A DNA stretch of 64,000 nucleotides from a virus. Each line of letters starts with the position of its first letter. Position 1 is the stretch's first letter. The notes under the pieces were generated by a model. It was not told the origin of the DNA, made no database searches, and saw only the letters and a list, made by a program, of their open reading frames with translations. A program made the position numbers and the translations under genes. Location: IMG/VR virus record IMGVR_UViG_3300042987_003796, positions 1-64,000 of that record. The stretch is one strand, 5' to 3'. Of this stretch, positions 5,223 to 30,008 are shown piece by piece.

Positions 5223-5762
5223 ATGGCAACAAAATTTAAATCTAAGTTATTTTATGGAAAAACAGGGTTTTTTGACTCTGTTGGTATTGGCGTATCTGAA
5301 CCTGAGAACGGATTACACATATCAGGCGCCGATTTTAAACTTGAAAGCGGGCAGGCTTATTTTCAATATAGACCGCTTATATCTGGTTCCCCAGTTATGT
5401 TATATGGCGATACTATAAGCGTGGATGTATCTGATTTATATCCACGTAATAATCCTAGCGGATTTATAACAGGAATTTCTAATTTAGTTTATACCACTGG
5501 AAATCAAAGCATTTCTGGTGTTAAAACATTTGTAGATAAAATATTACTATCTGATTTATCGCAATCGTCAGCAACTACAGGACAAATGCTGGCATGGAAT
5601 GGCAGCGCTTGGCAGCCAACAACTCCGGTTACTACTGGAACTGCAATTCAGAAAAACACATCAGACGTTACCCCGGTTAATTTTATACGCGTAATAACGC
5701 AGGCGGAATATGACGCATTGCCGATAAAAGATGAGAACACGATTTATTTTATTAAACAATAA
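5223..5762 (+). CDS. Fibre-like mosaic protein
   Basis: NPSGFITG, GNQSISGVKTF, GQMLAWNGSAWQP and TQAEYDAL..TIYFI motifs typical of fibre genes. Confidence 0.65.
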   Translation: MATKFKSKLFYGKTGFFDSVGIGVSEPENGLHISGADFKLESGQAYFQYRPLISGSPVMLYGDTISVDVSDLYPRNNPSGFITGISNLVYTTGNQSISGVKTFVDKILLSDLSQSSATTGQMLAWNGSAWQPTTPVTTGTAIQKNTSDVTPVNFIRVITQAEYDALPIKDENTIYFIKQ

Positions 5763-8405: not shown

Positions 8406-10313
8406 ATGGCTACTTTTAAAGATTTTTTTCTTAATGATACTCCAACCAGTGGGGATTTTCTGGTTGGATATAGTCAAGATGGTTCTGCTGAATTTAGAAC
8501 AACAATAGAACAATTAGCGAACGCTATTCGTATTAGTGGCATAAACGGCGTAGATGGAAAAAGCGCTTATGAGCTTTGGCAGCTAGCTTCTCCAGCCAAT
8601 GTTGGAGACTTAAATGGATTCTTAAATAGTTTAATTGGAGTTGACGGAAAAGACGGGATTGATGGACAAGACGGGGCCGACGGTCAGGATGGGCTTGATG
8701 GAAGAGACGGGATTGATGGACAAGACGGGATTAATGGCAAAAGTGCTTATGAACTTTGGCAGCTGGTTTCTCCAGCTAATACTGGAGATTTGGCTGAATT
8801 TTTAAATACTTTGAAAGGCGACAAAGGCGATAAGGGTGATCATGGCGATCAAGGTGATAGCGCTTATAATTTATGGCTATTAGAAGATGGAAATGATGGA
8901 AAAACTGTAACTGAATTTTTAAATAGCTTAAAGGGTGAAAAGGGCGATACTGGAAGTATACCAAATATTACTACTAGTGACGTAACGGAAGGATCTAGAT
9001 TATATTTTACAAGCGAAAGAGCTTCTGGCGCCGCTCCTGTTCAATCTGTTAATGATAAAATCGGAAATGTGGCTATAGGTATAGATGATATTCCTAATTT
9101 GTCTGATGCTCTAAATAGCAAGCAACCAACTGGAAACTATGTCGAATTAGAAAATAATTATATTCCTTCTCGTTATATTCCTGGCTCGGTTGATCAAATT
9201 GAGGAATTTTCAAGTTTTAGTGAATTGCAATTAAACATTGGATCTTCTAATGTTTTATATGTTACGACTGATAATAATAAGGTTTATAGATGGGGCGGTA
9301 CAGTTTATGTAGAAATAGTTGCTTCGCCAGGTACCACAACAGAGATTTTAGAGGGAAACAACTTGTATTTTACAAGCGAAAGAGCTAGGTTAGCTGCTCC
9401 TGTTCAATCGGTAGCTAACAGAACGGGAGATATCTCATTGATGGTTTCAGATATAACTGGTTTGAGCGATAGTTTAATATCCTCTAATGTGACGAGTTCT
9501 GAAATCGTAGCTAAACTTCCATTGGGGGTAAACGTTGGTATATATAAAAACGATTCAATCATACCTAAAGATACCCCTTTTGAAACTATTTTGCAAAATA
9601 TGTTGATAACTAGGGTTGCTTATAGTTATAAAGCGCCAACTTTATCGGTTGATTATCAGGGTTTAAATCCTGCGGCAACATACGAAGTTGGCGATACTAT
9701 AAGTTTTAATATTAATCCAACATATACTAAAAACGACGGTGGAAACTTAATAGACTTCACATATTCAAGGGCTGGTTCGTCTTTGGGAACTGGTAGTTCA
9801 TACTCGGTATCTGCGTATAAAATCGTATCAAATACTACATTTCAGGTTTCTGCAAATTACAGCGACGGTCCAATATATAATGATAATTTGGGTAATCCAG
9901 ATAATAATAACATTAAAGCTGGCACGTTGACAGCAACAAAAACAGTAAATGTTTTATATCCATATTTTTATGGAAAATCTACTACTCAGCCAACCGTTGA
10001 TAGCATAGCCGCTACTATACAAGCTGGAAACGCTACAAAAGTAATAGCCGATGCAAATGGTACAGTTTCAATAACATACAATGCAAACGCTGAGTATATT
10101 TGGTTTGCTCACCTTGCTTCTCAAACAACTAAAAAAAAGTGGTACAATACTGTTAATAACAACGGAGATATAGGCTCTGGGACAGTTTTGCAAGCTCCAG
10201 CTACGAAGTATATAAATTCACCAAGCTCAAATTGGACAAATATAGAATATAAAATATACATAGGAGCATTTGCTACTAAAACAGAAGGGGTTTTCGAACT
10301 TAGAAATTCTTGA
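8406..10313 (+). CDS. Collagen-repeat fibre protein
   Basis: Gly-X-Y runs (DGQDGADG, GDKGDKGD), GKSAYELW-type units x3, EG..LYFTSERA..AAPVQSV x2. Confidence 0.75.
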   Translation: MATFKDFFLNDTPTSGDFLVGYSQDGSAEFRTTIEQLANAIRISGINGVDGKSAYELWQLASPANVGDLNGFLNSLIGVDGKDGIDGQDGADGQDGLDGRDGIDGQDGINGKSAYELWQLVSPANTGDLAEFLNTLKGDKGDKGDHGDQGDSAYNLWLLEDGNDGKTVTEFLNSLKGEKGDTGSIPNITTSDVTEGSRLYFTSERASGAAPVQSVNDKIGNVAIGIDDIPNLSDALNSKQPTGNYVELENNYIPSRYIPGSVDQIEEFSSFSELQLNIGSSNVLYVTTDNNKVYRWGGTVYVEIVASPGTTTEILEGNNLYFTSERARLAAPVQSVANRTGDISLMVSDITGLSDSLISSNVTSSEIVAKLPLGVNVGIYKNDSIIPKDTPFETILQNMLITRVAYSYKAPTLSVDYQGLNPAATYEVGDTISFNINPTYTKNDGGNLIDFTYSRAGSSLGTGSSYSVSAYKIVSNTTFQVSANYSDGPIYNDNLGNPDNNNIKAGTLTATKTVNVLYPYFYGKSTTQPTVDSIAATIQAGNATKVIADANGTVSITYNANAEYIWFAHLASQTTKKKWYNTVNNNGDIGSGTVLQAPATKYINSPSSNWTNIEYKIYIGAFATKTEGVFELRNS

Positions 10314-18759: not shown

Positions 18760-19593
18760 ATGGACAATAAGAAACAACAAGAAAAATATTTATACTCATT
18801 TGAAGCTACAGATGCTGCTTCAGTTAAAAGAAAATTTTGCATTTTAAAGCCGACTAGAAAAATGAAAGAAAATGGTGAGCTTTTTTATGCATCTAAGCTT
18901 TCTCAGTTTATTTCTGCTGGAGTTTTGCCTAAGATAGTTTGGGACAAAATATTTAAAGATAACGGCGGCATAATATCTGAAGTAGACCAGAAGGAATATT
19001 CTGATCTTTTTGTTGAGTTTTCTGAATTTAGAAATTCCATAGATAGCCTATCTGTTAAAGCTGAAAAAGATAGAACAGAAGATGAGAAAAATCAAATTGA
19101 ATTTTTTGAGGGTCAGCTTATTAGGGTTAGAAAAAGAATGCAAGAAATGGAGATGGCTCAGGTTAATGCATTTGAGAATACGGCTGAAGCAAAGGCAAGA
19201 AATCGCACTATTGTTTGGTGGGCTGCTAATTTGGCTGCCGAGGAAAATAATGGAGTTACGGAATTATTATTGGGAAGTGGACAAATTGAAGATAGACTTG
19301 ATATTTATGACTCTATCATTGAAAATGATAAATTTCTTACCGATTGTTTTTCTAGAATAAATTATTTAGTTACTGTTTGGTACCTTGGCAGTGCATCTTC
19401 TTTTGAAGACTTTAAAACTTTAGATGAGGAATACTTGAAAAGAATTCAAGAGGATGAGTCTCTTTTGAAACCAGATAGTAGTTCGTTAGAAGATAAGAGT
19501 AGAGGTGAGAAAGAAAATGAGACGGTTACTGAAGTTGATTTCAAAAAAACTGAAGAGATTAATCAATCTGTATCTGTGGTAGCAGATAAGTAG
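18760..19593 (+). CDS. Putative tail assembly chaperone 1
   Basis: Acidic helical protein between tail tube and TMP. Confidence 0.55.
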   Translation: MDNKKQQEKYLYSFEATDAASVKRKFCILKPTRKMKENGELFYASKLSQFISAGVLPKIVWDKIFKDNGGIISEVDQKEYSDLFVEFSEFRNSIDSLSVKAEKDRTEDEKNQIEFFEGQLIRVRKRMQEMEMAQVNAFENTAEAKARNRTIVWWAANLAAEENNGVTELLLGSGQIEDRLDIYDSIIENDKFLTDCFSRINYLVTVWYLGSASSFEDFKTLDEEYLKRIQEDESLLKPDSSSLEDKSRGEKENETVTEVDFKKTEEINQSVSVVADK

Positions 19594-19632: not shown

Positions 19633-20676
19633 ATGGAACTTGATGATATACAAAAGCTTTATGTTAAGGTTTGCGCTGGCTATGAAAAAATATTTATCAA
19701 CGGCGAGGAATGCTTCTTAAAGCATCATACGTATATTGATAGGCACGCCTTAAAGGATAAATATAAAGAAGGTATTTCTATTGCTCAGTCTAATGGTATA
19801 AAGACAGAGAAAGATTATATAGATTTTTACATAGAAAAGAAATGGTGGTCTCAGTCTAAAGAGGATGAAATAAGAACTCTTACTACATTTATTGAAAATT
19901 TAAAAAAAAGTAGAGACAAATTAATATTGCCGTCGCAAAAAGAACAAGTTTCTCAAACTATAAAAGAGGAGCAGGGGAAGCTTGATATAATCATTTCTGA
20001 AAAGAAGAGTATTATTCCAATAACCGCAGAAGAATATGCAGATAAGTATTATAATAGATATTATTTATATTATTCTTTATTTAAAGATAGGGAGTTTTCT
20101 GTTTACTTTGGTAAAAATGAAGATTATTTTATAGAAATAGAAGACGAAATATATAACGATGTGTGGAATAGTGTTTTTAATGTTATTAATTTTCTTAAAT
20201 TAGAAAATATAAAATATGTAGCGGCGACTGGCTTTTTTCAGAATTTATTAATTTTAACTGGAAAAGAAATGTCGATAATAGACTTTTATGGAAAACCGAT
20301 TCCGTCTTTAACTATTAATCAAATTGATTTATTTTCTTATGCCGCAAGTTTTAGAAGATCTATAAATAATGCGACTGAGCAAATTCCGGATTATATACTT
20401 AGCGATCCGCTTAATTTGATAGATTGGTGTGAGGGTGGAAATTCTTCATCTGTAAAAGCAAAGGGTATGATGGAAAGAACGCCAAATAAAAATAAAACAA
20501 AAGGCGAACGTAGCGGTAGAATAAGTTCTATTGTTGGAGCCAGTTCTTCAGATTATAAAAAACTTGGGGTAGGGGGCGTTGCGTCTGGAGGTTCGGATCT
20601 TATATCTGCCGCTGAAGAATCGGGGGGAGAAATGGCTATAAATCAAATAATTAAAAAAACTGATAAATTAAAATAA
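19633..20676 (+). CDS. Putative tail assembly chaperone 2
   Basis: Directly upstream of the TMP. Confidence 0.5.
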   Translation: MELDDIQKLYVKVCAGYEKIFINGEECFLKHHTYIDRHALKDKYKEGISIAQSNGIKTEKDYIDFYIEKKWWSQSKEDEIRTLTTFIENLKKSRDKLILPSQKEQVSQTIKEEQGKLDIIISEKKSIIPITAEEYADKYYNRYYLYYSLFKDREFSVYFGKNEDYFIEIEDEIYNDVWNSVFNVINFLKLENIKYVAATGFFQNLLILTGKEMSIIDFYGKPIPSLTINQIDLFSYAASFRRSINNATEQIPDYILSDPLNLIDWCEGGNSSSVKAKGMMERTPNKNKTKGERSGRISSIVGASSSDYKKLGVGGVASGGSDLISAAEESGGEMAINQIIKKTDKLK

Positions 20677-20744: not shown

Positions 20745-23700
20745 ATGGCTGATAATTTGACTACGGCAACAATTGATGTAAGAGCAAACACAAGGGGCTT
20801 AGAAAAAGATATTCTAAAAGCTCTTAAAACCGTTGAATTTTCTGAGATAAATACAAAGAAAAGTTCGCAGGCTCTTGGTAGAATAACTGGACAGGTTTCT
20901 GAATTTAATAAAAGCCTGGAAGCGTCTAATGCTCGCGTAGTTGCTTTCGGTGCGTCTGCTGGGGCTATTTTTGCTGTCGAAAAAGCTTTTTCAAGCTTAA
21001 TTTCTTCTACGATAGAGGTGCAGAAAAAACTTACAGATGTAAATATTCTTCTTAATTTATCTTCCTCTGGTTTGCAAAAATTTGGAGATAGCTTATTTGA
21101 TATAGCTAAAAATACAGCTCAGTCTTTTTCTACTGTTGCAGACGCCGCTACCGAGCTTTCTCGTCAGGGTCTTGGCGTTGAAGAGACATTAAAAAGAACA
21201 AATGCCGCGTTAGTTTTGACTAGACTCAGCGGACTTGATGCAAAATCTAGCGTTGATGCGTTGACCGCTACATTAAACTCTTTTGCTGGGTCTGCGCTTG
21301 ATGCGGTAGAGGTAGTTAATAAATTAGCAAACGTTGACGCCGCTTTTGCTGTTAGTTCTGCTGATCTTGCCAATGCTATTAGTCGCGTTGGTTCTACTGC
21401 TGTTGATGCTGGGGTATCCTTAGATGAATTAATTGCTTTAGTTACTTCTGCTCAACAAACTACGGCGAGAGGTGGAGCTGTAATTGGTAACTCTTTTAAA
21501 ACTATTTTTACGCGTTTGCAAAGAGGAAAAGTTCAAGATTTGCTTGGCTCTCTTGGGGTCGATACAACAGAAGGACAAAGTGCGATAAGTTTATTACAAC
21601 AACTTGCGGCAACTTATGATACTCTTGGAGCGGCTCAAAAATCTTACGTTGCAGAGCAGGTTGGTGGCGTTTTCCAAATCAACATTTTAAAAGCAGCTTT
21701 ATCTGATTTGGGTAAGGAGTATAGTATTTTTGGAAGAGCTTTAGATACTTCATTAAGCTCAACAGATGAAGCTATTAGAAGAAATGAACTTTTAAATCAA
21801 ACTATTTCTGCCTTATCTAGTCAAGCCGTTTCTGGATTGCAGCAGGCGGCGAGCAAAATCGGCTCTATTGTTTTTGAACCTAACGCAAAGGGTTTTCTTT
21901 CTGGTTTTAATAATTTATTAGATTCTTTTAATAATATAGATGCAGAAAGCGCTGGTGGAAAGTTAATGACTGGATTTTTTAAGGGTATTGGTGACTTTAT
22001 ATCTGGTCCTGGAGCAGTTTTAGCTACCGCTGTTCTTGTAAAATTATTTTCCAATTTAGCAAAATTTGCAGCTGGGTCAGCAAAAGAATTACTTGGAACT
22101 AATAAAGCTGCACAACAACAGGCTGCTATAGAGCAAAGTATTTTAAGTATACTTCAAAAGAATAGTCAATTTACTAGTCAGATCTTGAGTGGTAAAATGA
22201 CAACAGTTCAGGCAGAAAAGGAATTATTGACTTATTTAACTGCTCAATCAAATATCCTTAGGGAGCAGGAAAGATTAAGCAAAATTATTGGTGCAAATTT
22301 GATGACAGCTGGAGTTAGTATTGGGTCAAGTGGTATTCCAATTGTAGCTGCATCAAAAGGTAAAAAGGCTGCTTCATCTGGATTTATACCAAACTTTGCA
22401 TCAGATCAGGCGATTGGTCAGGCGATGGAGAATGCTGGAGCTAGACAGCATGGATACAAAGCTGGAAAAGCTAAAAAAACAACTATTCATGATGGTAATG
22501 GAAAATCATTCAAATCTTTTGTTAATAGCAAAGAGGATGTAAAAACTTTTACTAATTCCGCTGGCAAGAAAGCTACAATAGTTCGTCCTCCAAATGGGTT
22601 TGGTGAAAATACTCAATATGCTGCTGGTGGATTTGTTCCTAATTTTGCAAAAAATAAAAATGAAGATTCGATAAGAAAAGGTGTGTTGTTTGAAAAACGT
22701 TTGAATAAAGCCCTTAGTGGATCTGCCTCGTTTTCTCCTAATGCTCCAATGGATTTTCCTCTCCCAACTGGTTATGGAAATGACTATGAGATAAGAAGAA
22801 AAATTGGAATTAGTGATGCTTCTATATATGGAGATGCAAAGCTTACTAGAAGTAGAAAAAGCGAACAGAGTTTATTAGACAAATATTTAAGAACGCCAGA
22901 GGGAGTTAAGGATTTTCTTTCAGCAAAAGAAACTTCTAGAGGGTTTATTAATTTAAATCCGAATGGATTATCAATGTTGTTTTCTGGGTCTGGATCTGAT
23001 TCAAGGGGCATATCTTATATTTCCAGTATAAATACTCAGCTTTCTGCTGGCGCAAAACGTTTGATTAGTTCAAGATTTGGTAAAAATCATAAAAAAAGCA
23101 GAACATTGGCAATGCCTTATATTGCTGATAAAATAAACGAAAAAAATTTATCTGGATTAAGTTCTGGTTTTATTCCTAATTTTGGAAAAATGCAAGATCT
23201 TTATAAAAATACGAAGATGCGCGAAGGAAAGGATGATCCTTTTGGCAAAAGAGCTGCTAAGGCTAATTTAGCAGCTAAAAAGGGTATTCCAATTAAAGAT
23301 CTTGGAAACTTGCCATATACAATGATTCACCCTGGTGGTGGTAGTAATTTTCAAGCCTCTGCTAGTTATACTAAAAAAGATAAAAAAACAAATTCTTCAA
23401 CTCAATATGTTGGAAAAATATGGACTGCTGGATTAGATGCAAGCAAGTTAAATCGTAAAACTGTTCAAGATAGAGTTGGAGATGCGCTAGTTACAGAAGC
23501 AAATAATTTAACAAAAATTTTCAATCCTTCTGGGAGTGGGCAATTTAGTAACTATAGTCAGTTGTCAAATACCGGATCTGTATTTAGTGCAGCTGGCACT
23601 GTTTTTGAGTCAGCGGTCAGAAAAGCGTTTAATGTTTCTGCTCAAGGTCAAGGAGATAGGATAGATTTTCCAAATCCATCCTCTGAGCTTAGATCTTTCT

Positions 23701-26700
23701 TTGGAAATGCTCCAGGACCTTATGAGGCAAAAATTTCAAATGACGATACAAATAGGTCAAGTACTCTTTCTAAGTGGATAGCTGTAAATGGATTAAGTGG
23801 TGGATTTATTCCTAGCTTTGCTAATTCTAAGAATAGGCTGTCATTTTCTTATAAGGATAAAGATGAATTTGGAATTAGTGAAATTGAAGCTATAATGAGC
23901 GGTAAAAAAGTTGGTTCATTTAGTTATGCGGAAGATAGACCCGGAATAGTAGATGTTGGAGACCTTACAGTTAATAAAGGAGAAAGAGGAAAGGGTATAG
24001 GGAGCGCGCTTTATAAAGAAGCAATAAAAAGAAACGCCGGCAAAAAAATGAAGGGGCAATTATTGCCACAGATGAATCGCTTATTAGAGAAAATAAAAAA
24101 AGGCGAACCCGTTTCTGCTGAGACCTTATACCCACAAATAAAGAGAGCCGATCTTGCTAAAAGTTCTGTTTTTGAGGTTTATGGGCATAAGGGTTTAGAA
24201 GCAGAAAAAATGACGCGTGATCAGTTTACGTCATTTGTTAATGCAAAAATTACGGAATTAAAAAAAGACCCGAAAAGATTGCAAAGCTATTTTGGAAATG
24301 TAGAAGCTGACGAGTATGGCGGACTTGGAGTGGATTTACAAACTCAACATTCTTCTGGATTTATTCCTAATTTTGCAAGCGGAATAATAACTGGAGACGT
24401 CATTCGGGGAAATGAATATAAAAGCGTTTTAGATTTTCTTGCAAAAACAAATAAACCTGTTAGAACTATTATTGGTCCGTCTGGCTCTGGAAAAACAACA
24501 ATGGCTTCGAAAAGTGGCGGCTCTATTGTTAAGTCATTTAACGATTTAGCGGGATTTGATAGTTATATTCTTGATAGAGCTACGATGTCTATGCCAAAAG
24601 ACGAAATAGTTTCAGAAAATTTAAAAAAGATATTTCGTAAATCTGGAGAAAGCGGCGCTTTAGATTTATTGGTTGGCTCTAGAAATACTATAAAATCTTT
24701 ACGCGAAAAAAGGGCAAAAGAAGGAGACTCTTTAATTCCGGATAGAAAACAATTTACTTCTGGAAGTGGAGGTATTTCATCTTTTGTAAAGGGCGCTAGG
24801 GAATTTGCGTCTGAATATCCAGGAGCTTCTGTTTCTAGAATATTTAAAGATAAGTCTGAATATAAAACAAAAAAAATATTATCAGGGGGGTTTGTTCCCA
24901 ACTTTGCTTCTCCAAAATTAATAGAAGCTATAAATAAAAGAATTAAAAATCCAAACGTTGCCCAAAAGTTAAAAGAGGGAGCTGGCTTGAATGATTCTGC
25001 TTATATGAAAGCCGCGAGTAAGCTTGGAATAGATGTTGCTGGACTAGAGGCATTCCTGCCTCAGATGGGTTTTCCTTTGCGTGGAAAAGATAAGGTATTA
25101 AACTTATCAAAAGCTATTGGTTTTGGTTTTGGTAGATCTTTCATTATAGACGCTCTTAAGATGGGGGATTGGAATTATGTTAAGCCTCAATTTGAATCCG
25201 CTGGCTATGTGAAAGATGACTTTGATAAGTTATCTAAATATGCAAAAACGCCAAAAGGCGAATCTGCCTTAAAATGGTGGAGGTCTAAATCTAGCGGGTT
25301 TATTCCAAATTTTGCTTCTCCAAAGAAAAGCGGAAAGACTTTTAATAGTTACATGAGTAAGCCTTTATCTGATACTATCAGATTCGTGCATCCTCTTAAG
25401 CCAGTTATTGATTCAAGTGGTAATATATCTTTTCCTGGGCTTCCTAAAAAGGGCGCTAAAGCTACAATCATTCATGGGGAGGCAATGGCTGGGCAGGAAA
25501 GAATGACTCTCGATGAGTTTTATGCGCTTGCTGAAAAAAGAAAGAACGATCCAAGATTCTGGGGTAGAAACTCTTTTGAGTATGTATATAATTCAGGAGG
25601 ATTTGTTCCTAATTTTGCTGACGCATTAAATAATGCAATAGCTAGAGAAAAGTCTTCTGGGTTGTCTAATAGTCAGATATATGTTGACCAGCATAGCTCT
25701 TTAAAGAATAAAAATAACCCAATGGGTTTAATGGTTGCTAATACTAGGGATGAGCCAGGCGGTGGAATTCAGGGCATTAAAAGAGCTAAGAAAGAGGGAA
25801 AGAATCCAAAAACTTATGGAACATCTTTTGGGTATGTGCCTAATTTTGCAACTGGACCGATACAACCGTCTCAAGATTACTTGAATGCCTTGAATGAGGC
25901 TGTTAAGGCGGTAGATAAGCTATCGCAAAGTTCTAAAAAAGCATCTGAGGGTTTAAATCGAGCTTCTGATAGTGTTGAGAAATTTGATAACGGAGCTTCT
26001 GGGTCTGGCAAGGGAAAAATGGGTAAGATTGGTGGATTCCTTAAAGATAATGCTTTAACTGTAGGTTTTGGTTTGCAGTCTATAGCTAGTATGGCTGGTG
26101 AATACGCTGGAAATGACGATACTAAATCTGGTCGCGCAATTAAGGCTGGAGCAGGCGCGGTTGGAGATATTGCTAGTTTTACAGGAACTGGGGCTATGAT
26201 TGCTGGACCTTGGGGGGCTGCTGCTGGTTTCGCTGTAGGATTAGGAAAAGCTGCGCTTGATTTGTCAAAAGCCTTAACTACTAAAGTTCCAGATATGGAA
26301 AAAGCTCTTCAGACTAGCTCTGATGCAATGAATAGATTTGGTGAATCTGGTCAAAAGCTATTGCAACTTAATGAGCAATATGGTGACGCGTTAAATTCTG
26401 GAAATCCTGGTCAGGCTGCTGATATAATGGTTAAAACTCAAAAGGCGTATGCGGAAGAGTTAAGTAAATTAACTCAAGCTCAAAGAGATTCATTTATTTC
26501 AGCAGTTGCTCAGGGTAAGGGGCAAGAAGAATATGCAAAAATCCTTGGCGAAATGCAGGATTCTGTTAGAGCCTCTGAGTCGGCTTTGTCTTTGCAAAAA
26601 TTTAGTGAGAGCAAGGGCTTTTTTGGTGGACCTGATAAAAAACTTATATCTGGAATAGATAAAACTTTAGTTTCTGATTTGACAAAGGGTCTTGACGCAG

Positions 26701-29700
26701 ATGCGATTAAAAAAGCTTTAGAAAATGCTTCCCCTGTTCTTACTGATAAGAGCGCGGGAACAGAAAATCAAGCTATTGCATTAATGAAAAGCCTAGCTCA
26801 GTCAGAGAGTCTTACAGTAGATCAAAAAGCTAATTTTGAAAAGATTATTGATTCTTTTGCTTCTGCGGCGGCGCAAACAGATTTAGGAGCAGTTTCTGAG
26901 GCTTTCGTTGAAGGAATTCAGTTAAAGCCTAAATCATTTGAAGATGTTCAAAAAGCTCAAGAGGCGTATAAAAAATCCCAAGAAATAAACAATGCAAAAA
27001 TAAAAGAAGAGATTGCTATTAGAGAAAAAGCAAATGCTTCTTTATTGCAGCTTCAATCTGAAACGGAAGCTATATATACTAGCTTCAATGATTCTCTTGA
27101 AAGATTTATTTCTAGTGTTGAAACAGCCGCAAAAATGCGAGCTGCGTCAGTAGAGTTCAAGCAAGAATTTTATTCTGAAGGCGGAGTTCCAAGCGCCGCT
27201 GAGTCGCAAAAAGAAAAAAATATAGTTCAGGCTTCGAGGGATAATTTGACGGTTGATATTTATAAATCTCAAGTTGAGGCTTCTAATAATTTTAATTCCG
27301 CTGTTAAGGATTTAGTTGGAGGTCTTGATATTGACATAGCAAAGCTTGGCGTCGGCGGTCAGTCGATGGATCAGCAGAATCAGCTGCTTGGCGTACAGTC
27401 TTCTATACAGAAAGCATTGTTGCCAATTCAGGGGATGATATTAAAGGGAGACTATGAAGGGGCAAGACAAAAAACAAGCGAGGCTCTTTCTGGATTAAAG
27501 CCAGAAGAAGTTAGTGCGGTTGGCGTTGACGCGATAACAAAAGTTGGTCAGCAATTAGATCAAACATTGCAGGATAGCGCTAGGAAATTAGATCAGATTA
27601 AACAAAATTCACAAAAAGATCTTGCTATTCAAGCTCAGCAATTAGTTTTTCAAAGAGCTATGTCTAAACTTAGTCAAGCTCAAGGCTTTGGTGGAACAGA
27701 CATAAAAGGTTTAATTACAGATAATGGAGGAGAGTCATTTCAGCAGGCTATTTCTTCTTTGAAAGATCTAAAAACGTTGGGATATAATCAAAAAGATTTG
27801 CAAAAGGGGTACGTAAAGGGCGGTGGAGCTGAAACATATGGAATAAAAGATAAAAAAGCTAATGCTGCGATGAGCGGAAAAGTTATTGATTTTTATGGAG
27901 CTGCCAGTAAAATAATCGGAAGTCCTGTTTTGTCTACCCAATCTAAGGATTTTGGCGCTTTAGCTCAAGCGGTCTCAGACCAGATAAGAAACCAGATGGA
28001 TAAGTTCAAGGCTGCTGGAGAAGGCGTTGTTGACCCTGCTGTTTTTAGTAGAATGGAAAAAGCTCTTGCCACATTAGGTGGGGGAGATATGGTTGCTCAG
28101 TTAAAAATATTTAAAAATATTGGAGTTGCAGATGTTGGTGGAAAGCAAGTAATGGATGAAGCTTTAAAAACTTATAGCGGTGGTCAGTTTGCAAATTTGA
28201 GCCCAGAGCTTAAGAAGGCATTTGAAAGCACTACAGATGAAGGGGCTGCTGCTACTTTATTATTAGTCGCTGTACAAGATAAGCAAACCCAAAGTCTAAA
28301 TACAGGATTTAATTTTTTATCTGGCATTGGAGGGCAAACAAATGACTTATTGTCAAAACAACCGGACGCAATCGCTGCAGCAATAGGAGCGGTTTTAGAA
28401 AAAGGTAGAGCCGATTCTGAGGCGCAAAAAGTTAATCGAGAAGCTGCGTCGCTAGACAAGCAGTTCTTTGATAGTAAGGCTAAACTGAAAGAAGCTAATA
28501 AAGGCGTCGATTCAGCTCAAGCCCAAGTTGATTCTATTGTTGAATCTTTAGGTGGAAATGCTAGTGGATCATCTATTGAGGATTTTATTAAATCCATGCA
28601 GGTTAGTCAAAAAGATAAAGATAAGGCTAAGTCTATAACGTCTTTAGGTAGGAATGAATATATTAATTATAAAACATCGCTGGAGATGACTCCAACAGAA
28701 ATATTGTCAGGGTTACCAACTCCAAGGAGCGACAAAGCCAAACAAGAGTCGGCAAAAAAATATGACGAAGCTGTGGCTCTTCAAGAAAAAGTAAAAAAAC
28801 TTGATGCATTGAAAGCCGCATCTCAGCAGGTTAGTAGTAAAAAATCTGAAGCTGTAGGTATTTCTAATGAAATAAAAGAAATCAATAAAAAATATGATGC
28901 GCTTGCGCCAGATATTCAAGCTAAAAACGATGCCGCAAAAAAGGCTTCTGAAGTTGCTGCGCAAAGCAGAAATCTAGTTCTTGATAAGAAGCCATTGCAG
29001 GATTCTATGGATTATTACGCAAATGATAAAAAAGCTAGAGAGGCTGCTTTAGCTCAATCTTTGGCGACAGAAAATCTCAAAAAAACAAAACAGCAAAAAC
29101 AAACTCTAGATAGAACGTCTGGGGCAGAAAAGGCTATGAGCCCTACTGGAAAGCTAGATACTTATGAAAATATAGCGATTACTAAAGCTGGCGGCGCAAA
29201 CCAAGCTGCTTTCCAAGATTTATTGTCTCAAATGGTTGTGCCGAGTTTTGATAAATTTAAAGATGTTTATGCGTCTCTTGGAGAAGAGGGTGGAGCAAAA
29301 GGCGCTTACGAAAGAACCATAAATGAAATGATTGGACCAGCTCTTTCCCAAAAGCTGCCAATTGTAGAATCTGGATCTCAAGGTCAGCAAATAGCTTCTG
29401 CTATTACAGAGGGCATTAAGCAAGCTTCCGCCTCAGTGGTTGGTGGAGGCATTACACGCGAAGAAAATAAATCGTTGATGAGCAAACATGGGTATGTTGA
29501 AGGAGAGGGTTGGAAAAATGAAAGCGGTAAGGCGGCTTATTCTGAAGAACTTAAAATGTTAAAAGAACAAAAGCAAGCTCAGCAGCAGTTGTCTTCACAG
29601 ACTAGCGCAAATAATTTACAAAAAAATGCAGAGCAAGAGCAGGCGAAAAAACAAGAAAGCGAGAAAGCTAAAGCTCAATCTGCTCAGCAAGATCCTACTC

Positions 29701-30008
29701 AACTTATTTCGAGTATCCTGACTACGGTTCAGCAAATTTCAACCGATCTTCAAAAAAAGGCGGCTGGAACAACGGAACAGCAACCCTCTCAGTCTGGTTC
29801 CGCTGGTGGGATAAGTGTAAGCGCGCCGGTATCATTTAGTGTAAATTCAACAGCCGGAGAAGGAAAAGATGCTGCGTCTGCGATTGCGGAACAAATAAAG
29901 GTGGGGCTATCTTCATTCTTGTCTTCTCCAGAATTTATAGGAAAAGTTACATCTATTGCTAACCAAGCTGCTGGAAATAAAACTCCTCCAACTTCACTTC
30001 CTAAGTAA
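20745..30008 (+). CDS. Tape measure protein with an internal array of motif-delimited accessory domains
   Basis: N-terminal TP901-like TMP region (ELSRQGLG...DAAFAVSSADLA...GGAVIGNSFKTIF), Ala/Gln/Lys-rich helical body, hydrophobic segments, position after tube and chaperones. Confidence 0.9.
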   Translation: MADNLTTATIDVRANTRGLEKDILKALKTVEFSEINTKKSSQALGRITGQVSEFNKSLEASNARVVAFGASAGAIFAVEKAFSSLISSTIEVQKKLTDVNILLNLSSSGLQKFGDSLFDIAKNTAQSFSTVADAATELSRQGLGVEETLKRTNAALVLTRLSGLDAKSSVDALTATLNSFAGSALDAVEVVNKLANVDAAFAVSSADLANAISRVGSTAVDAGVSLDELIALVTSAQQTTARGGAVIGNSFKTIFTRLQRGKVQDLLGSLGVDTTEGQSAISLLQQLAATYDTLGAAQKSYVAEQVGGVFQINILKAALSDLGKEYSIFGRALDTSLSSTDEAIRRNELLNQTISALSSQAVSGLQQAASKIGSIVFEPNAKGFLSGFNNLLDSFNNIDAESAGGKLMTGFFKGIGDFISGPGAVLATAVLVKLFSNLAKFAAGSAKELLGTNKAAQQQAAIEQSILSILQKNSQFTSQILSGKMTTVQAEKELLTYLTAQSNILREQERLSKIIGANLMTAGVSIGSSGIPIVAASKGKKAASSGFIPNFASDQAIGQAMENAGARQHGYKAGKAKKTTIHDGNGKSFKSFVNSKEDVKTFTNSAGKKATIVRPPNGFGENTQYAAGGFVPNFAKNKNEDSIRKGVLFEKRLNKALSGSASFSPNAPMDFPLPTGYGNDYEIRRKIGISDASIYGDAKLTRSRKSEQSLLDKYLRTPEGVKDFLSAKETSRGFINLNPNGLSMLFSGSGSDSRGISYISSINTQLSAGAKRLISSRFGKNHKKSRTLAMPYIADKINEKNLSGLSSGFIPNFGKMQDLYKNTKMREGKDDPFGKRAAKANLAAKKGIPIKDLGNLPYTMIHPGGGSNFQASASYTKKDKKTNSSTQYVGKIWTAGLDASKLNRKTVQDRVGDALVTEANNLTKIFNPSGSGQFSNYSQLSNTGSVFSAAGTVFESAVRKAFNVSAQGQGDRIDFPNPSSELRSFFGNAPGPYEAKISNDDTNRSSTLSKWIAVNGLSGGFIPSFANSKNRLSFSYKDKDEFGISEIEAIMSGKKVGSFSYAEDRPGIVDVGDLTVNKGERGKGIGSALYKEAIKRNAGKKMKGQLLPQMNRLLEKIKKGEPVSAETLYPQIKRADLAKSSVFEVYGHKGLEAEKMTRDQFTSFVNAKITELKKDPKRLQSYFGNVEADEYGGLGVDLQTQHSSGFIPNFASGIITGDVIRGNEYKSVLDFLAKTNKPVRTIIGPSGSGKTTMASKSGGSIVKSFNDLAGFDSYILDRATMSMPKDEIVSENLKKIFRKSGESGALDLLVGSRNTIKSLREKRAKEGDSLIPDRKQFTSGSGGISSFVKGAREFASEYPGASVSRIFKDKSEYKTKKILSGGFVPNFASPKLIEAINKRIKNPNVAQKLKEGAGLNDSAYMKAASKLGIDVAGLEAFLPQMGFPLRGKDKVLNLSKAIGFGFGRSFIIDALKMGDWNYVKPQFESAGYVKDDFDKLSKYAKTPKGESALKWWRSKSSGFIPNFASPKKSGKTFNSYMSKPLSDTIRFVHPLKPVIDSSGNISFPGLPKKGAKATIIHGEAMAGQERMTLDEFYALAEKRKNDPRFWGRNSFEYVYNSGGFVPNFADALNNAIAREKSSGLSNSQIYVDQHSSLKNKNNPMGLMVANTRDEPGGGIQGIKRAKKEGKNPKTYGTSFGYVPNFATGPIQPSQDYLNALNEAVKAVDKLSQSSKKASEGLNRASDSVEKFDNGASGSGKGKMGKIGGFLKDNALTVGFGLQSIASMAGEYAGNDDTKSGRAIKAGAGAVGDIASFTGTGAMIAGPWGAAAGFAVGLGKAALDLSKALTTKVPDMEKALQTSSDAMNRFGESGQKLLQLNEQYGDALNSGNPGQAADIMVKTQKAYAEELSKLTQAQRDSFISAVAQGKGQEEYAKILGEMQDSVRASESALSLQKFSESKGFFGGPDKKLISGIDKTLVSDLTKGLDADAIKKALENASPVLTDKSAGTENQAIALMKSLAQSESLTVDQKANFEKIIDSFASAAAQTDLGAVSEAFVEGIQLKPKSFEDVQKAQEAYKKSQEINNAKIKEEIAIREKANASLLQLQSETEAIYTSFNDSLERFISSVETAAKMRAASVEFKQEFYSEGGVPSAAESQKEKNIVQASRDNLTVDIYKSQVEASNNFNSAVKDLVGGLDIDIAKLGVGGQSMDQQNQLLGVQSSIQKALLPIQGMILKGDYEGARQKTSEALSGLKPEEVSAVGVDAITKVGQQLDQTLQDSARKLDQIKQNSQKDLAIQAQQLVFQRAMSKLSQAQGFGGTDIKGLITDNGGESFQQAISSLKDLKTLGYNQKDLQKGYVKGGGAETYGIKDKKANAAMSGKVIDFYGAASKIIGSPVLSTQSKDFGALAQAVSDQIRNQMDKFKAAGEGVVDPAVFSRMEKALATLGGGDMVAQLKIFKNIGVADVGGKQVMDEALKTYSGGQFANLSPELKKAFESTTDEGAAATLLLVAVQDKQTQSLNTGFNFLSGIGGQTNDLLSKQPDAIAAAIGAVLEKGRADSEAQKVNREAASLDKQFFDSKAKLKEANKGVDSAQAQVDSIVESLGGNASGSSIEDFIKSMQVSQKDKDKAKSITSLGRNEYINYKTSLEMTPTEILSGLPTPRSDKAKQESAKKYDEAVALQEKVKKLDALKAASQQVSSKKSEAVGISNEIKEINKKYDALAPDIQAKNDAAKKASEVAAQSRNLVLDKKPLQDSMDYYANDKKAREAALAQSLATENLKKTKQQKQTLDRTSGAEKAMSPTGKLDTYENIAITKAGGANQAAFQDLLSQMVVPSFDKFKDVYASLGEEGGAKGAYERTINEMIGPALSQKLPIVESGSQGQQIASAITEGIKQASASVVGGGITREENKSLMSKHGYVEGEGWKNESGKAAYSEELKMLKEQKQAQQQLSSQTSANNLQKNAEQEQAKKQESEKAKAQSAQQDPTQLISSILTTVQQISTDLQKKAAGTTEQQPSQSGSAGGISVSAPVSFSVNSTAGEGKDAASAIAEQIKVGLSSFLSSPEFIGKVTSIANQAAGNKTPPTSLPK
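22380..25850 (+). repeat. Nine dispersed copies of peptide motif G[FY][IV]P[NS]F[AG] within the TMP
   Basis: Motif Gly codons at 22380, 22629, 23166, 23802, 24357, 24888, 25296, 25599 and 25830. Confidence 0.95.

What the first reader, a model, noticed from the sequence alone, without database searches (positions are those of the whole stretch)
22380..25850. Delimiter is conserved as peptide, not DNA, but leaves in-frame microhomology
Seen: copies differ mainly at synonymous sites (GGA TTT ATA CCA AAC TTT GCA vs GGG TTT GTT CCC AAC TTT GCT), so selection acts on the protein. Copies 2 (22629) and 8 (25599) still share 20 identical bp (GGATTTGTTCCTAATTTTGC). Copy 2 reads YAAGGFV, which from memory resembles the [FY]AxGG[FY] motif near the C-terminus of many siphovirus TMPs. 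Inference: an ancestral TMP motif was amplified, and crossovers between copies would add, delete or swap cassettes while keeping the frame.
Basis: partly seen in the sequence, partly recalled or inferred. Interest (0 to 1): 0.7.

Follow-up and report, generated by a model that had tools for sequence, protein, structure and literature searches.

The report
Motif-fenced swappable tape measure modules
A giant phage tail "ruler" protein carries eight unrelated modules fenced by one short peptide, and natural relatives gain, lose and swap whole modules exactly at that peptide, so the phage can re-equip a protein that it probably ejects into its host.

Summary
Window 22380-25850 lies inside one 3087-aa tape measure protein (TMP) gene (20745-30008). 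It holds nine in-frame copies of G[FY][VI]P[NS]F[AG], which fence eight mutually unrelated segments of 77-212 aa. One segment is GNAT-like and one has a P-loop.

The DNA likeness between copies, including the 20-nt run, is close to what the peptide plus AT-biased codon use predicts. Selection therefore acts on the peptide.

In 119 relatives, 610 motif-bounded cassettes fall into 124 families that are added, dropped, replaced and reordered. Similarity breakpoints pile up at the motif. Contigs 95-99% identical to the window, from three other studies, carry one extra 199-codon cassette flanked on both sides by the same 22 nt of motif DNA.

What the peptide does is not shown. It sits in low-confidence linkers of two AlphaFold models. 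My best guess is a processing site like those of T5 pb2 and lambda gpH (about 0.35). A docking site or a passive joint are the rivals.

The [FY]AxGG[FY] resemblance holds for 3 of 5 TMPs checked, including lambda gpH. This scan has already noted the same architecture on other genomes. I found no paper describing it.

The parts
20745..30008 (+). Tape measure protein gene, 3087 aa
   Evidence: ORF list and translation. Pfam PF10145 at aa 120-308, E 9e-24. TIGR01760 at aa 77-401, E 1.7e-26. Six PHROG TMP families.
21102..21668 (+). TP901-type TMP core domain (PF10145, aa 120-308)
22299..22355 (+). Hydrophobic segment aa 519-537, 8 residues before motif copy 1
   Evidence: Kyte-Doolittle 19-residue mean 1.38
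22380..22400 (+). Motif copy 1, GFIPNFA
22401..22628 (+). Cassette 1 body (family F2; 83 aa with its motif). It opens the array in 51 of the 120 proteins.
   Evidence: No Pfam or PHROG hit.
22629..22649 (+). Motif copy 2, GFVPNFA, preceded by YAAG (the lambda-like [FY]AxGG[FY] form)
22650..23165 (+). Cassette 2 body (family F11; 179 aa with its motif), function unknown. Replaced by other families in most relatives.
   Evidence: Unlike sequence beyond 22648 and before 23164 in other samples' contigs.
23166..23186 (+). Motif copy 3, GFIPNFG
23187..23801 (+). Cassette 3 body (family F3; 212 aa with its motif). It is the commonest cargo family (49 proteins). D..ExK is invariant, but the fold was not identified.
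23802..23822 (+). Motif copy 4, GFIPSFA (Ser in place of Asn)
23823..24356 (+). Cassette 4 body (family F4; 185 aa with its motif), GNAT acetyltransferase-like
   Evidence: PF00583 scores 22.5 bits against a cut-off of 20.7, E 1.5e-4, on the isolated cassette
24357..24377 (+). Motif copy 5, GFIPNFA. This is the site of the 199-codon cassette indel in near-identical natural variants.
24378..24887 (+). Cassette 5 body (family F5; 177 aa with its motif), P-loop NTPase-like (GPSGSGKTT)
   Evidence: Only weak Walker-A matches
24888..24908 (+). Motif copy 6, GFVPNFA
24909..25295 (+). Cassette 6 body (family F6; 136 aa with its motif), function unknown
25296..25316 (+). Motif copy 7, GFIPNFA
25317..25598 (+). 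Cassette 7 body (family F7; 101 aa with its motif), function unknown
25599..25619 (+). Motif copy 8, GFVPNFA
25620..25829 (+). Cassette 8 body (family F1; 77 aa with its motif). A small alpha-beta-beta-alpha module that closes the array in most relatives.
   Evidence: No fold match.
25830..25850 (+). Motif copy 9, GYVPNFA
26190..26246 (+). Gly/Ala-rich hydrophobic segment aa 1816-1834, downstream of the array
25851..30008 (+). C-terminal 1385 aa, rich in A/K/S/Q, with no motif copy. In relatives this part, not the array, holds the lysozyme, GH19 or SLT domains.
   Evidence: with 15

Best explanation
The region is the cargo array of a giant TP901-type tape measure protein from an uncultured freshwater phage. 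The record is 84 kb and estimated about 55% complete.

A ten-residue peptide, A-[AS]-[SGK]-G-[FY]-[VI]-P-N-F-A, stands at every boundary between eight unrelated modules. Each copy is kept by selection on the peptide. Codon use is strongly AT-biased, so any two copies still share about 17 of 21 bases and sometimes 20-22 in a row, always in the same frame. Recombination between copies, within a genome or between related phages, therefore deletes, inserts, replaces or reorders whole modules without breaking the ruler protein.

Shown: the TMP identity, the nine copies, the unrelatedness of the modules, peptide-level conservation, the breakpoints at the motif, and a one-module indel between near-identical natural variants flanked by the motif DNA.

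Inferred: the modules travel in the tail and enter the host with the TMP, and the peptide is read at every junction.

I commit to the peptide being a proteolytic processing site that frees the modules from the ruler. The comparison is T5 pb2, which is cut between its hydrophobic stretch and its enzyme domain, and lambda gpH, which is cut in its Gly-rich region. I give this sub-claim about 0.35 on its own. The confidence below is for the whole picture apart from that sub-claim.
For: TMP identity.

Nine copies, found only in this gene of the 84-kb record.

Modules share only the motif columns. hhalign aligns 7-11 columns for F1/F2, F3/F9, F9/F11, F1/F7, F2/F7 and F6/F7. The exception is F3~F10 (98%).

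Peptide-level rather than DNA-level conservation.

Family-wide modularity: 610 cassettes fall into 124 families with tight length ranges. Orders are permuted (P0007 has F7-F6, P0014 has F5 moved).

Mosaic identity. P0003 against the window reads N 92, F3 92, F5 96, F6 69, F7 40, F1 88, C 39%.

Breakpoints at the motif.

Natural variants. In X3 record 9, X5 record 15 and X6 record 20, the two laid pieces overlap on window 24353-24374 and are offset by 597 nt. The extra DNA starts LDVKKSNLPL, which is family F8 (199 aa in P0005). X10 loose ends agree.

The motif lies in low-confidence linkers. The pLDDT blocks holding the five modelled copies are 49/74, 66, 29/31, 57/34 and 25/25.

In viral contigs, 116 of 118 DNA-pattern matches lie in long open frames and 103 of those frames hold 2 or more copies.

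The F3 cargo family occurs only inside long proteins: 46 of 50 hits among 1.84 billion representatives are 1165 aa or longer.

Precedent for cutting a TMP next to an enzyme domain: PMC10038345 passages and PMC12617516 passages.

The array starts 8 residues after a hydrophobic stretch, as the T5 cut site does.
Against: No cleavage product, protease or delivery has been observed.

No protease family was found in the 30 neighbouring ORFs scanned.

The only peptidase-like cassette (F8, HExxH read by eye) is in 20 of 120 proteins and is absent from this window.

The P23-45 TMP-fused RNA polymerase is proposed to act while attached to the TMP (PMC10770324 passages), so cargo need not be cut free.

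Relatives embed lysozyme, GH19 and SLT domains in the C-terminal part without any motif.

12 of 66 change-points lie more than 20 aa from a motif.

The segmentation used the motif itself, and the sequences are related. The family-wide counts are therefore not independent events, and any multidomain protein would show HSP ends at domain borders.

The variants are assembled contigs, not reads.

Only GNAT (just above Pfam's cut-off) and a Walker A motif are recognised among the eight modules.
Confidence: 0.7

Rival explanations
1. The peptide is a docking or handling site, not a cut site. Each module boundary binds a partner that keeps the bulky modules threadable in the tail tube or helps them refold after ejection. 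The partner could be the tail assembly chaperone, the tube lumen, or a host chaperone or prolyl isomerase. The modules stay tethered to the ruler.
For: The motif is a short linear element in predicted unstructured linkers, with one copy per module.

Globular modules of 77-212 aa must be handled somehow inside a tail tube (inference).

The P23-45 vRNAP is thought to work while fused (PMC10770324 passages).

The GYIPNFA variant (105 copies) shares YIPN with WEYIPNV, a peptide that binds the SurA P1 domain with micromolar affinity (PMC11401910 passages).
Against: No partner is identified. The two ORFs upstream of the TMP have no family hits.

The SurA consensus Ar-X-Ar-X-Pro is not met, because the position of the first aromatic is S/G/K.

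The host is unknown.

GNAT and P-loop modules need cytoplasmic cofactors, which argues against a periplasmic partner (inference).
Confidence: 0.25
2. The peptide is a passive structural joint. It is a fixed turn or helix cap that insulates the folding of neighbouring modules and gives every module the same start and end. No partner and no cleavage are involved.
For: In both models a helix starts at or right after the motif's last residues: H13-26 after motif residues 8-14 in F1, and H14-23 after residues 8-14 in F3.

The invariant G, P and N are classic turn and cap residues (general knowledge).
Against: Ordinary linkers are not conserved to 93-100% per residue across modules whose bodies have diverged to 33% identity.

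The motif itself is modelled with low confidence.

Lysozyme-type domains sit in the same proteins without it.
Confidence: 0.12
3. The repeat is a DNA site for a dedicated site-specific recombinase, as in an integron or shufflon, and the peptide is only its translation.
For: Cassettes are exchanged exactly at the repeat.

In cultured phages with related TMPs, an integrase-annotated gene lies just upstream of the TMP gene (AM4, PJN02) or a few genes upstream (SPbeta).
Against: Synonymous sites vary about as freely as codon bias allows.

All copies are direct, with none inverted.

The window's upstream ORF has no similarity to those integrases (best E 0.88-3.3) and no Pfam hit.

Those cultured TMPs lack the PNF motif.
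Confidence: 0.03

Closest known systems
Polyvalent proteins of phages and conjugative elements (Iyer et al. 2017, PMC5512222; abstract and passages seen)
   Same: One polypeptide strings together 2-15 unrelated, mostly enzymatic domains that an invading element brings into the cell. Processing by an embedded zincin-like peptidase is proposed there. Relatives of this TMP carry an HExxH cassette (F8).
   Different: That paper's main text never mentions a tape measure (0 occurrences; its supplementary files were not visible to me). No uniform delimiter peptide is described in the passages I saw. Here the carrier is the tail ruler itself, and only 2 of 8 modules match known families.
TMPs with embedded enzymes: T5 pb2 (PMC10038345, passages), P23-45 gp96 (PMC10770324, abstract and passages), mycobacteriophage TM4 Tmp (PMC1796659, listing only)
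   Same: A tape measure carries an enzyme into the cell envelope or cell. T5 pb2 is cut after R1127, between a hydrophobic stretch and its peptidase domain. gp96 (5,002 aa) carries a virion RNA polymerase that acts in the cytoplasm.
   Different: Those carry one fixed domain. Here there is an array of eight interchangeable modules, each fenced by the same peptide, and natural populations are polymorphic for module content.
Lambda gpH maturation to gpH* and gpHC (PMC12617516, passages)
   Same: gpH is cut in a Gly-rich region near its C terminus, and both the site and the protease are unknown. gpH has two [FY]AxGG[FY] copies there, at aa 733 and 778. Copy 2 of this window has the same six-residue form. 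A cut near 733 would leave about 121 aa, close to the reported ~14 kDa (my arithmetic).
   Different: gpH lacks the VPNF half and has no cargo between its copies beyond 39 residues. Profile comparison of F1, F2, F6 and F7 with the gpH C-terminal region finds nothing. That lambda is cut at this motif is not established.
Viral polyproteins with uniform cleavage sites (general knowledge, no call)
   Same: Unrelated functional units in one reading frame are separated by one conserved 7-10-residue peptide.
   Different: No protease and no products are known here. The host is a bacterium, and the polyprotein is a virion structural protein.
Integron and shufflon cassette systems (general knowledge, no call)
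   Same: Cassettes are bounded by a repeated site and are gained, lost and reordered.
   Different: Exchange here is in frame inside one gene. The site is conserved as peptide, not DNA. There is no recombinase and there are no inverted sites.

Membership tests
TP901-type phage tail tape measure protein (PF10145 / TIGR01760) | N-terminal core domain matches the family models above their cut-offs | tested here: met
   PF10145 scores 84.9 bits against a cut-off of 33.2. TIGR01760 scores 93.1 bits against 28.8.
TP901-type phage tail tape measure protein (PF10145 / TIGR01760) | Gene sits in the tail module between chaperone genes and distal tail / hub genes | tested here: inconclusive
   The ten ORFs flanking the gene (seven upstream, three downstream) have no Pfam hit above cut-off, and the upstream ones no PHROG hit. 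Tail-fibre-like genes lie further upstream.
TP901-type phage tail tape measure protein (PF10145 / TIGR01760) | Protein length sets tail length | not testable with these tools
   No virion is available.
Polyvalent proteins (Iyer et al. 2017) | Several unrelated effector-type domains in one polypeptide of a phage | tested here: inconclusive
   Eight modules are unrelated to each other, but only GNAT and a Walker A motif are recognised. Catalytic-looking motifs in other families were read by eye from consensus lines.
Polyvalent proteins (Iyer et al. 2017) | Embedded processing metallopeptidase (MPTase) | tested here: inconclusive
   The F8 cassette with HExxH is in 20 of 120 relatives and in near-identical variants, but not in this window. 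A sequence search (phmmer) of F8 against solved structures in the PDB finds nothing.
Polyvalent proteins (Iyer et al. 2017) | Packaged in the virion and delivered into the host | not testable with these tools
   Inferred only from being part of a TMP.
Polyprotein with uniform cleavage sites | Same short peptide at every unit boundary | tested here: met
   Nine copies bound eight units. Conservation at the F1 flanks is 49-56 of 56 for G, P, N and F.
Polyprotein with uniform cleavage sites | A cognate protease and cleaved products | not testable with these tools
   No protease family was found in the 30 ORFs scanned. No proteomics is available.
Site-specific recombination cassette system (integron / shufflon) | Site conserved at the DNA level beyond its coding constraint | tested here: not met
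   The same-codon fraction is 0.625 against 0.529 expected (P 0.061). A 20-nt run arises in 11.7% of simulations.
Site-specific recombination cassette system (integron / shufflon) | Adjacent dedicated recombinase | tested here: not met
   Neighbouring ORFs have no Pfam hit. BLASTP against three integrase-annotated genes found beside related TMPs gives E 0.88-3.3.
Lambda-type [FY]AxGG[FY] TMP motif | Six-residue motif present | tested here: met
   Copy 2 reads YAAGGF. Across the family, 38 of 729 copies carry the prefix, 33 of them the second copy. The motif occurs in lambda gpH (2 copies), SPbeta YomI (1) and PJN02 (1), but not in Stills or AM4.
SurA client motif Ar-X-Ar-X-Pro | Aromatic residue two positions before the second aromatic | tested here: not met
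   That position is S/G/K. Only YIPN is shared with WEYIPNV (PMC11401910).

The most novel reading that the evidence does not exclude
The delimiter is the first sequence-defined processing signal of tape measure proteins. It would be an elaborated form of the [FY]AxGG[FY] element that sits where lambda gpH is cut. It would be cleaved during tail assembly or on ejection, possibly by Asn-dependent self-cleavage at N|F, which I recall from some capsid proteins and did not test.

On this reading the TMP is a true polyprotein that releases a population-variable, plug-in set of enzymes into the host cytoplasm ahead of the DNA.
Probability: 0.25. Interest if true: 0.85.

Novelty: new variant of a known kind. 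Interest (0 to 1): 0.7.

Why it matters
Phages are known to fuse single enzymes to their tail ruler and to string anti-host domains into polyvalent proteins. Here both ideas meet in one gene, with a built-in standard connector. One peptide lets any module be inserted in frame, and its coding sequence gives recombination a foothold.

Near-identical phages in different lakes already differ by one module. This makes the payload a fast-evolving trait that can be read from metagenomes.

If the peptide is a cut site, it would give a concrete handle on how TMPs are processed. The lambda site and protease are still unknown (PMC12617516). It would also offer a natural design for loading proteins into phage tails.

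Most modules match no known family, so the arrays are a rich source of candidate host-takeover or counter-defence enzymes.

Tried and rejected
Array region against 50,697 GenBank phage records by tblastn: no match at E 1e-3.

Pfam and PHROGs on the eight cassettes: only GNAT and weak P-loop matches. Pfam on P0005, P0046 and P0057: only PF10145 and GNAT.

ESM Atlas on cassette 3: no usable hit.

Structure models:
- AlphaFold of F3+F4 gave mean pLDDT 56. Foldseek found no match at E 1e-3. VIA-align's best Z was 5.3, below its own noise guide.
- The F1 model gave pLDDT 76.5 and no Foldseek match.

My by-eye readings of the consensus lines remain unverified. These are F3/F10/F11/F9 as PD-(D/E)xK-like, F12 as HAD-like (DWDGT) and F8 as a zincin (HExxH). 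Sequence searches (phmmer) against solved structures in the PDB for cassettes 4 and 5 and for F8 gave only a Walker A match.

F1 and F2 looked alike to me, but hhalign aligns only the motif.

F1, F2, F6 and F7 against the C-terminal regions of lambda gpH, SPbeta YomI and PJN02: probabilities of 1.4% or less.

Window ORF 19633-20676 against integrase-annotated genes beside related TMPs: no similarity.

Complex prediction on three copies of motif-F1-motif: no verdict.

SurA-binding idea: the consensus is not met. It is kept only as a low-odds lead.

Three joints have sides of only 20-29 letters and were not counted: 22648 to 24930, 23184 to 24348, and 24961 to 25692.

Host: a scan of 185,579 species genomes with the F1 alignment found two MAG contigs, labelled Saccharibacteria and Flavobacterium sp. 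This is too little to name a host.

The first call for earlier notes on this genome found none.

Literature:
- Exact 7-residue motif strings occur in 0 papers. The 17 papers holding the 5-residue strings are unrelated by title.
- Searches combining 'tape measure protein' with polyvalent, effector, cleavage, polyprotein, domain shuffling and cassettes found no paper on such arrays. Searches were read as listings only, apart from the papers named above.
- The library lacks most subscription journals, and supplements were closed.

Full report
WHAT IS THERE

The finding's range (22380-25850) lies inside one 9,264-nt ORF (20745-30008, + strand) that encodes 3087 aa. The protein is a TP901-type tape measure protein (TMP). 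Pfam PF10145 matches aa 120-308 with E 9e-24. TIGR01760 matches aa 77-401 with E 1.7e-26. Six PHROG TMP families also match.

The window is part of an 84,021-base virus record that CheckV rates about 55% complete. Twenty freshwater or lake metagenome runs from 14 studies hold part of the stretch. Two of those runs may be its source.

THE REPEAT

G[FY][VI]P[NS]F[AG] occurs nine times, at aa 546-1702, all in frame. The quoted codons, the 20-nt identity of copies 2 and 8, and the YAAGGFV reading are all correct.

A degenerate DNA pattern for the motif matches 7 times in the window and 0 times in 100 shuffles. In the whole record it matches only in this gene and only on the + strand. The repeat finder recovers all nine copies as direct repeats and finds no inverted copy.

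The nine copies fence eight segments of 83, 179, 212, 185, 177, 136, 101 and 77 aa.
- Cassette 4 is GNAT-like. PF00583 scores 22.5 bits against a cut-off of 20.7.
- Cassette 5 has a Walker A loop and nothing more.
- The other six match no Pfam or PHROG family.

The array starts 8 residues after a hydrophobic stretch (aa 519-537) and is followed by a Gly/Ala-rich hydrophobic stretch (aa 1816-1834).

PEPTIDE OR DNA?

I compared the 36 copy pairs over 7 codons each. Of these, 208 codon pairs encode the same residue: 130 use the same codon and 78 differ synonymously. The other 44 change the residue, mostly I/V and F/Y (the last figure is my arithmetic).

I then redrew every codon from the gene's own usage, where TTT is 84%, AAT 85% and GTT 66%. 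This gives:
- 16.3 identical bases of 21, against 17.1 observed (P 0.028);
- a same-codon fraction of 0.529, against 0.625 observed (P 0.061);
- a run of 20 nt or more in 11.7% of trials.

So the "microhomology" is almost entirely a by-product of a conserved peptide in an AT-rich genome.

An estimate of peptide conservation that does not depend on my regex comes from the F1 module. I collected 56 distinct copies by similarity of the module body (33-78% identical to the window's). At the upstream and downstream flank, G is kept in 55 and 53, P in 55 and 56, N in 52 and 55, and F in 54 and 49 (plus 7 Y). Mean column identity across the alignment is 45%.

THE FAMILY

A search with the array region found 247 proteins at E 1e-3 among 7,998 scored candidates. 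The best 120 are TMPs or fragments of 1,729-4,887 aa, and every one has at least one motif copy (1-11).

I cut these proteins at the motif and clustered the pieces with the motif removed. This gave 610 internal cassettes in 124 families with narrow length ranges. Profile comparison shows that the families share only the 7-11 motif columns. The exception is F3 with F10 (98% probability).

Architectures differ by whole cassettes:
- the window is F2-F11-F3-F4-F5-F6-F7-F1;
- P0002 has F9 in place of F11;
- P0005 adds F23, F62, F17 and F8;
- P0007 has F7 before F6;
- P0014 has F5 before F3;
- P0006 has F1-F39-F1.

F2 usually opens the array and F1 usually closes it. Ordinary-sized TMPs of 1,147-1,695 aa have minimal arrays of three to five copies.

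Of these, 116 lie in long open frames, 107 in frames of 500 aa or more, and 103 in frames with two or more peptide copies. Across all loci held then plus the window, the core [FY][VI]PNF occurs in 125 open frames. Of these, 119 are 400 aa or longer. Five of the six short ones are 10-31 aa. I saw the motif in no other gene.

The commonest cargo family, F3, has only 50 relatives at E 1e-3 among 1.84 billion representative proteins. Of these, 46 are 1,165 aa or longer with the match internal. The four shorter ones (164-619 aa) match at an end (three of them) or run close to their C-terminal end (the 619-aa one), like fragments.

No GenBank phage has the array. The N-terminal 545 aa find 126 cultured-phage TMPs, all below 60% identity and mostly from Bacillus and Lactococcus phages.

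DO BREAKPOINTS FALL AT THE MOTIF?

(a) DNA. Against four viral contigs, blastn HSPs end 2-9 nt past motif 2, start 16 nt before motif 4, and start at or within 8 nt of motif 8.

(b) Protein HSP ends. For the window's TMP against 119 relatives, 135 of 217 starts and 173 of 272 ends inside the array lie within 10 aa of a motif. Uniform placement would give 15%.

(c) Mosaic identity. P0003 is 92, 95, 92, 84, 96, 69, 40, 88 and 39% identical over N, F2, F3, F4, F5, F6, F7, F1 and C. P0006 is 96% in N, 63% in F3 and 98% in F5.

(d) Change-points. I took the 66 adjacent cassette pairs whose identity differs by 15 points or more and fitted a maximum-likelihood change-point to each.
- 31 lie within 10 aa of the motif start and 54 within 20 aa. 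The median is +7, which is the motif's end. Uniform placement gives 10% within 10 aa.
- The 12 exceptions are eight F3-to-F4 rows at +61 to +72, two F4-to-F5 rows at -106, one F6-to-F7 row at -101, and one F7-to-F1 row at +24.

These counts come from related sequences and from a segmentation that used the motif, so they are not independent events.

(e) Natural variants. This is the cleanest evidence. Contigs from four runs of four other studies were laid on 22000-26200.
- In X3 (a 57,994-nt contig), X5 (9,306 nt) and X6 (9,426 nt), the contig matches the window up to 24374 and again from 24353. In the contig the two pieces are offset by 597 nt, which is 199 codons.
- The 22 nt shared by both junctions are TTCT GGA TTT ATT CCT AAT TTT, which is motif 5.
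- The extra DNA begins LDVKKSNLPL and ends FSSVMGNQAY (X10 loose ends). These are the start and end of family F8, which is 199 aa in P0005.
- The contigs are 95.5-99.4% identical to the window on either side. X3 has 106 differences in 2,375 nt on the left and 12 in 1,848 nt on the right.

So phages nearly identical to this one differ from it by exactly one cassette plus one motif, flanked by a 22-nt direct repeat. This is what a crossover between two motif copies would leave. The repeat is shorter than the 31-letter words used to index these contigs, so I do not expect assembly to have collapsed or joined at it. That is inference: the assembler's own word length was not shown to me.

The F8-less order also exists independently in viral contig L001.

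In X5, X6 and X10, contigs that match from 23164 (2 nt before motif 3) carry the same unlike sequence upstream. X5 also has unlike sequence after 22648, the end of motif 2. This indicates a replaced cassette 2.

WHERE THE PEPTIDE SITS

AlphaFold of motif-F1-motif, built on 56 sequences, gave mean pLDDT 76.5. It shows a small helix-strand-strand-helix module. The ten-residue blocks that hold the flanking motifs score 49 and 74 (upstream copy, residues 8-14) and 66 (downstream copy, residues 85-91).

The model of cassettes 3+4, built on 29 sequences, is poor (mean pLDDT 56). All three of its motif copies lie in or next to segments below pLDDT 50.

Neither model has a usable match among solved structures. 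A trimer test of motif-F1-motif gave no verdict.

Lysozyme, GH19 and SLT domains in three relatives lie 600-1,000 residues beyond the last motif, in the C-terminal part, without delimiters. The delimiter is therefore a feature of the array, not of every embedded domain.

HOW IT MOST LIKELY WORKS

Shown: a peptide kept at every junction, and in-frame exchange of whole modules at its coding sequence.

Inferred: because TMPs fill the tail tube and leave it at infection, the modules are carried into the host. This rests on established knowledge and on the T5, lambda and P23-45 papers.

For the peptide's own role I commit, at about 0.35, to a processing site.
- A uniform 7-10-residue peptide between unrelated units is the hallmark of polyproteins.
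- T5 pb2 is cut after R1127, between its hydrophobic stretch and its enzyme domain, and both parts stay in the tail (PMC10038345).
- Lambda gpH is cut in its Gly-rich C-terminal region by an unknown agent at an unknown site (PMC12617516).

Against this reading:
- No protease was found in the 30 ORFs scanned.
- The HExxH cassette is present in only 20 of 120 proteins.
- The P23-45 polymerase is thought to act while fused.

The rivals are a docking site for a chaperone or the tube (0.25), a passive joint (0.12), and a DNA site for a dedicated recombinase (0.03). The last is contradicted by the codon test, by the absence of inverted copies and by the absence of a recombinase.

THE LAMBDA-LIKE HALF

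- Lambda gpH has it at aa 733 and 778.
- SPbeta YomI has it at aa 2143 of 2285.
- Bacillus phage PJN02 has it at aa 2211 of 3080.
- Stills and AM4 lack it.
- Shuffles give at most 0.006 per protein.

None of the five TMPs has the VPNF half. In this family the prefix marks 38 of 729 copies, and 33 of those are the second copy, at the end of F2. A cut at gpH 733 would leave about 121 aa, close to the reported ~14 kDa. This is my arithmetic, not a result.

COMPARISON AND NOVELTY

The nearest concepts are these:
- polyvalent proteins (PMC5512222, whose main text has no mention of tape measures);
- TMPs with one embedded enzyme (T5, TM4, P23-45);
- lambda and T5 TMP maturation.

The new elements are the uniform delimiter, the interchangeable multi-module array inside the ruler, and the population-level module polymorphism.

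I found no paper with the motif, and none describing such arrays in four further searches that I read as listings. The library lacks most subscription journals, and supplements were closed. The supplementary architectures of PMC5512222 could bear on this.

This scan has noted the same architecture on other genomes. Those notes agree with my results. They also gave me the P23-45 and lambda leads, which I checked.

VERDICT

The biochemical role of the peptide remains open.

Noticed in passing
window 24353-24377 (motif 5); runs X3, X5, X6, X10: Near-identical phages in other samples carry a 199-codon cassette here that this window lacks (family F8, with HExxH in its consensus). In X3 the contig is 95.5% identical to the left of the junction and 99.4% to the right.
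   Followed up: partly
L127:6056-7048, L129:6206-7192, L128:4025-5026: In cultured phages with related giant TMPs, a gene annotated as integrase lies directly upstream of the TMP gene (Lactococcus AM4, Bacillus PJN02) or a few genes upstream (SPbeta yomM). The window's upstream ORF is not similar to them.
   Followed up: partly
window 18760-19593 and 19633-20676: The two ORFs just upstream of the TMP (277 and 347 aa) are in the same reading frame, separated by one stop codon and 39 nt. Neither has a Pfam or PHROG hit. They occupy the place where tail assembly chaperones usually lie.
   Followed up: no
window 5223-5762 and 8406-10313: Tail-fibre-type genes lie upstream of the tail tube/TMP block rather than downstream. 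One has a PF24243 phage tail tip domain and the other has collagen-like tail-fibre PHROG matches.
   Followed up: no
protein P0135 (200 aa, on a 206,740-base contig): A short, apparently complete protein holds three GLIPNF copies and an F1 module. It may be a free-standing mini-array or a broken TMP. Its contig could not be fetched.
   Followed up: no
L125:143-2704 (lambda gene H): Lambda gpH has two [FY]AxGG[FY] copies 45 residues apart (start to start), just after its Gly-rich hydrophobic stretch. The first, at aa 733, is about where a ~14-kDa C-terminal fragment would begin (PMC12617516).
   Followed up: partly
window 24881-24916 vs 25289-25324; 23153-23184 vs 23789-23820: Some copy pairs share likeness beyond the motif: 83% over 36 nt (both read NFASPK) and 84% over 32 nt (both read GLS.GFIP).
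   Followed up: no
family F3 consensus (window 23187-23195): A conserved Met stands two residues after the motif in the F3 family (GFiPNFAsM). This may be a relic of a former start codon of a captured gene.
   Followed up: no
L123 and L124: The only two hits in 185,579 species genomes are MAG contigs, labelled Candidatus Saccharibacteria (138,977 bases) and Flavobacterium sp. (7,690 bases). They are likely binned phage contigs or a prophage piece.
   Followed up: no
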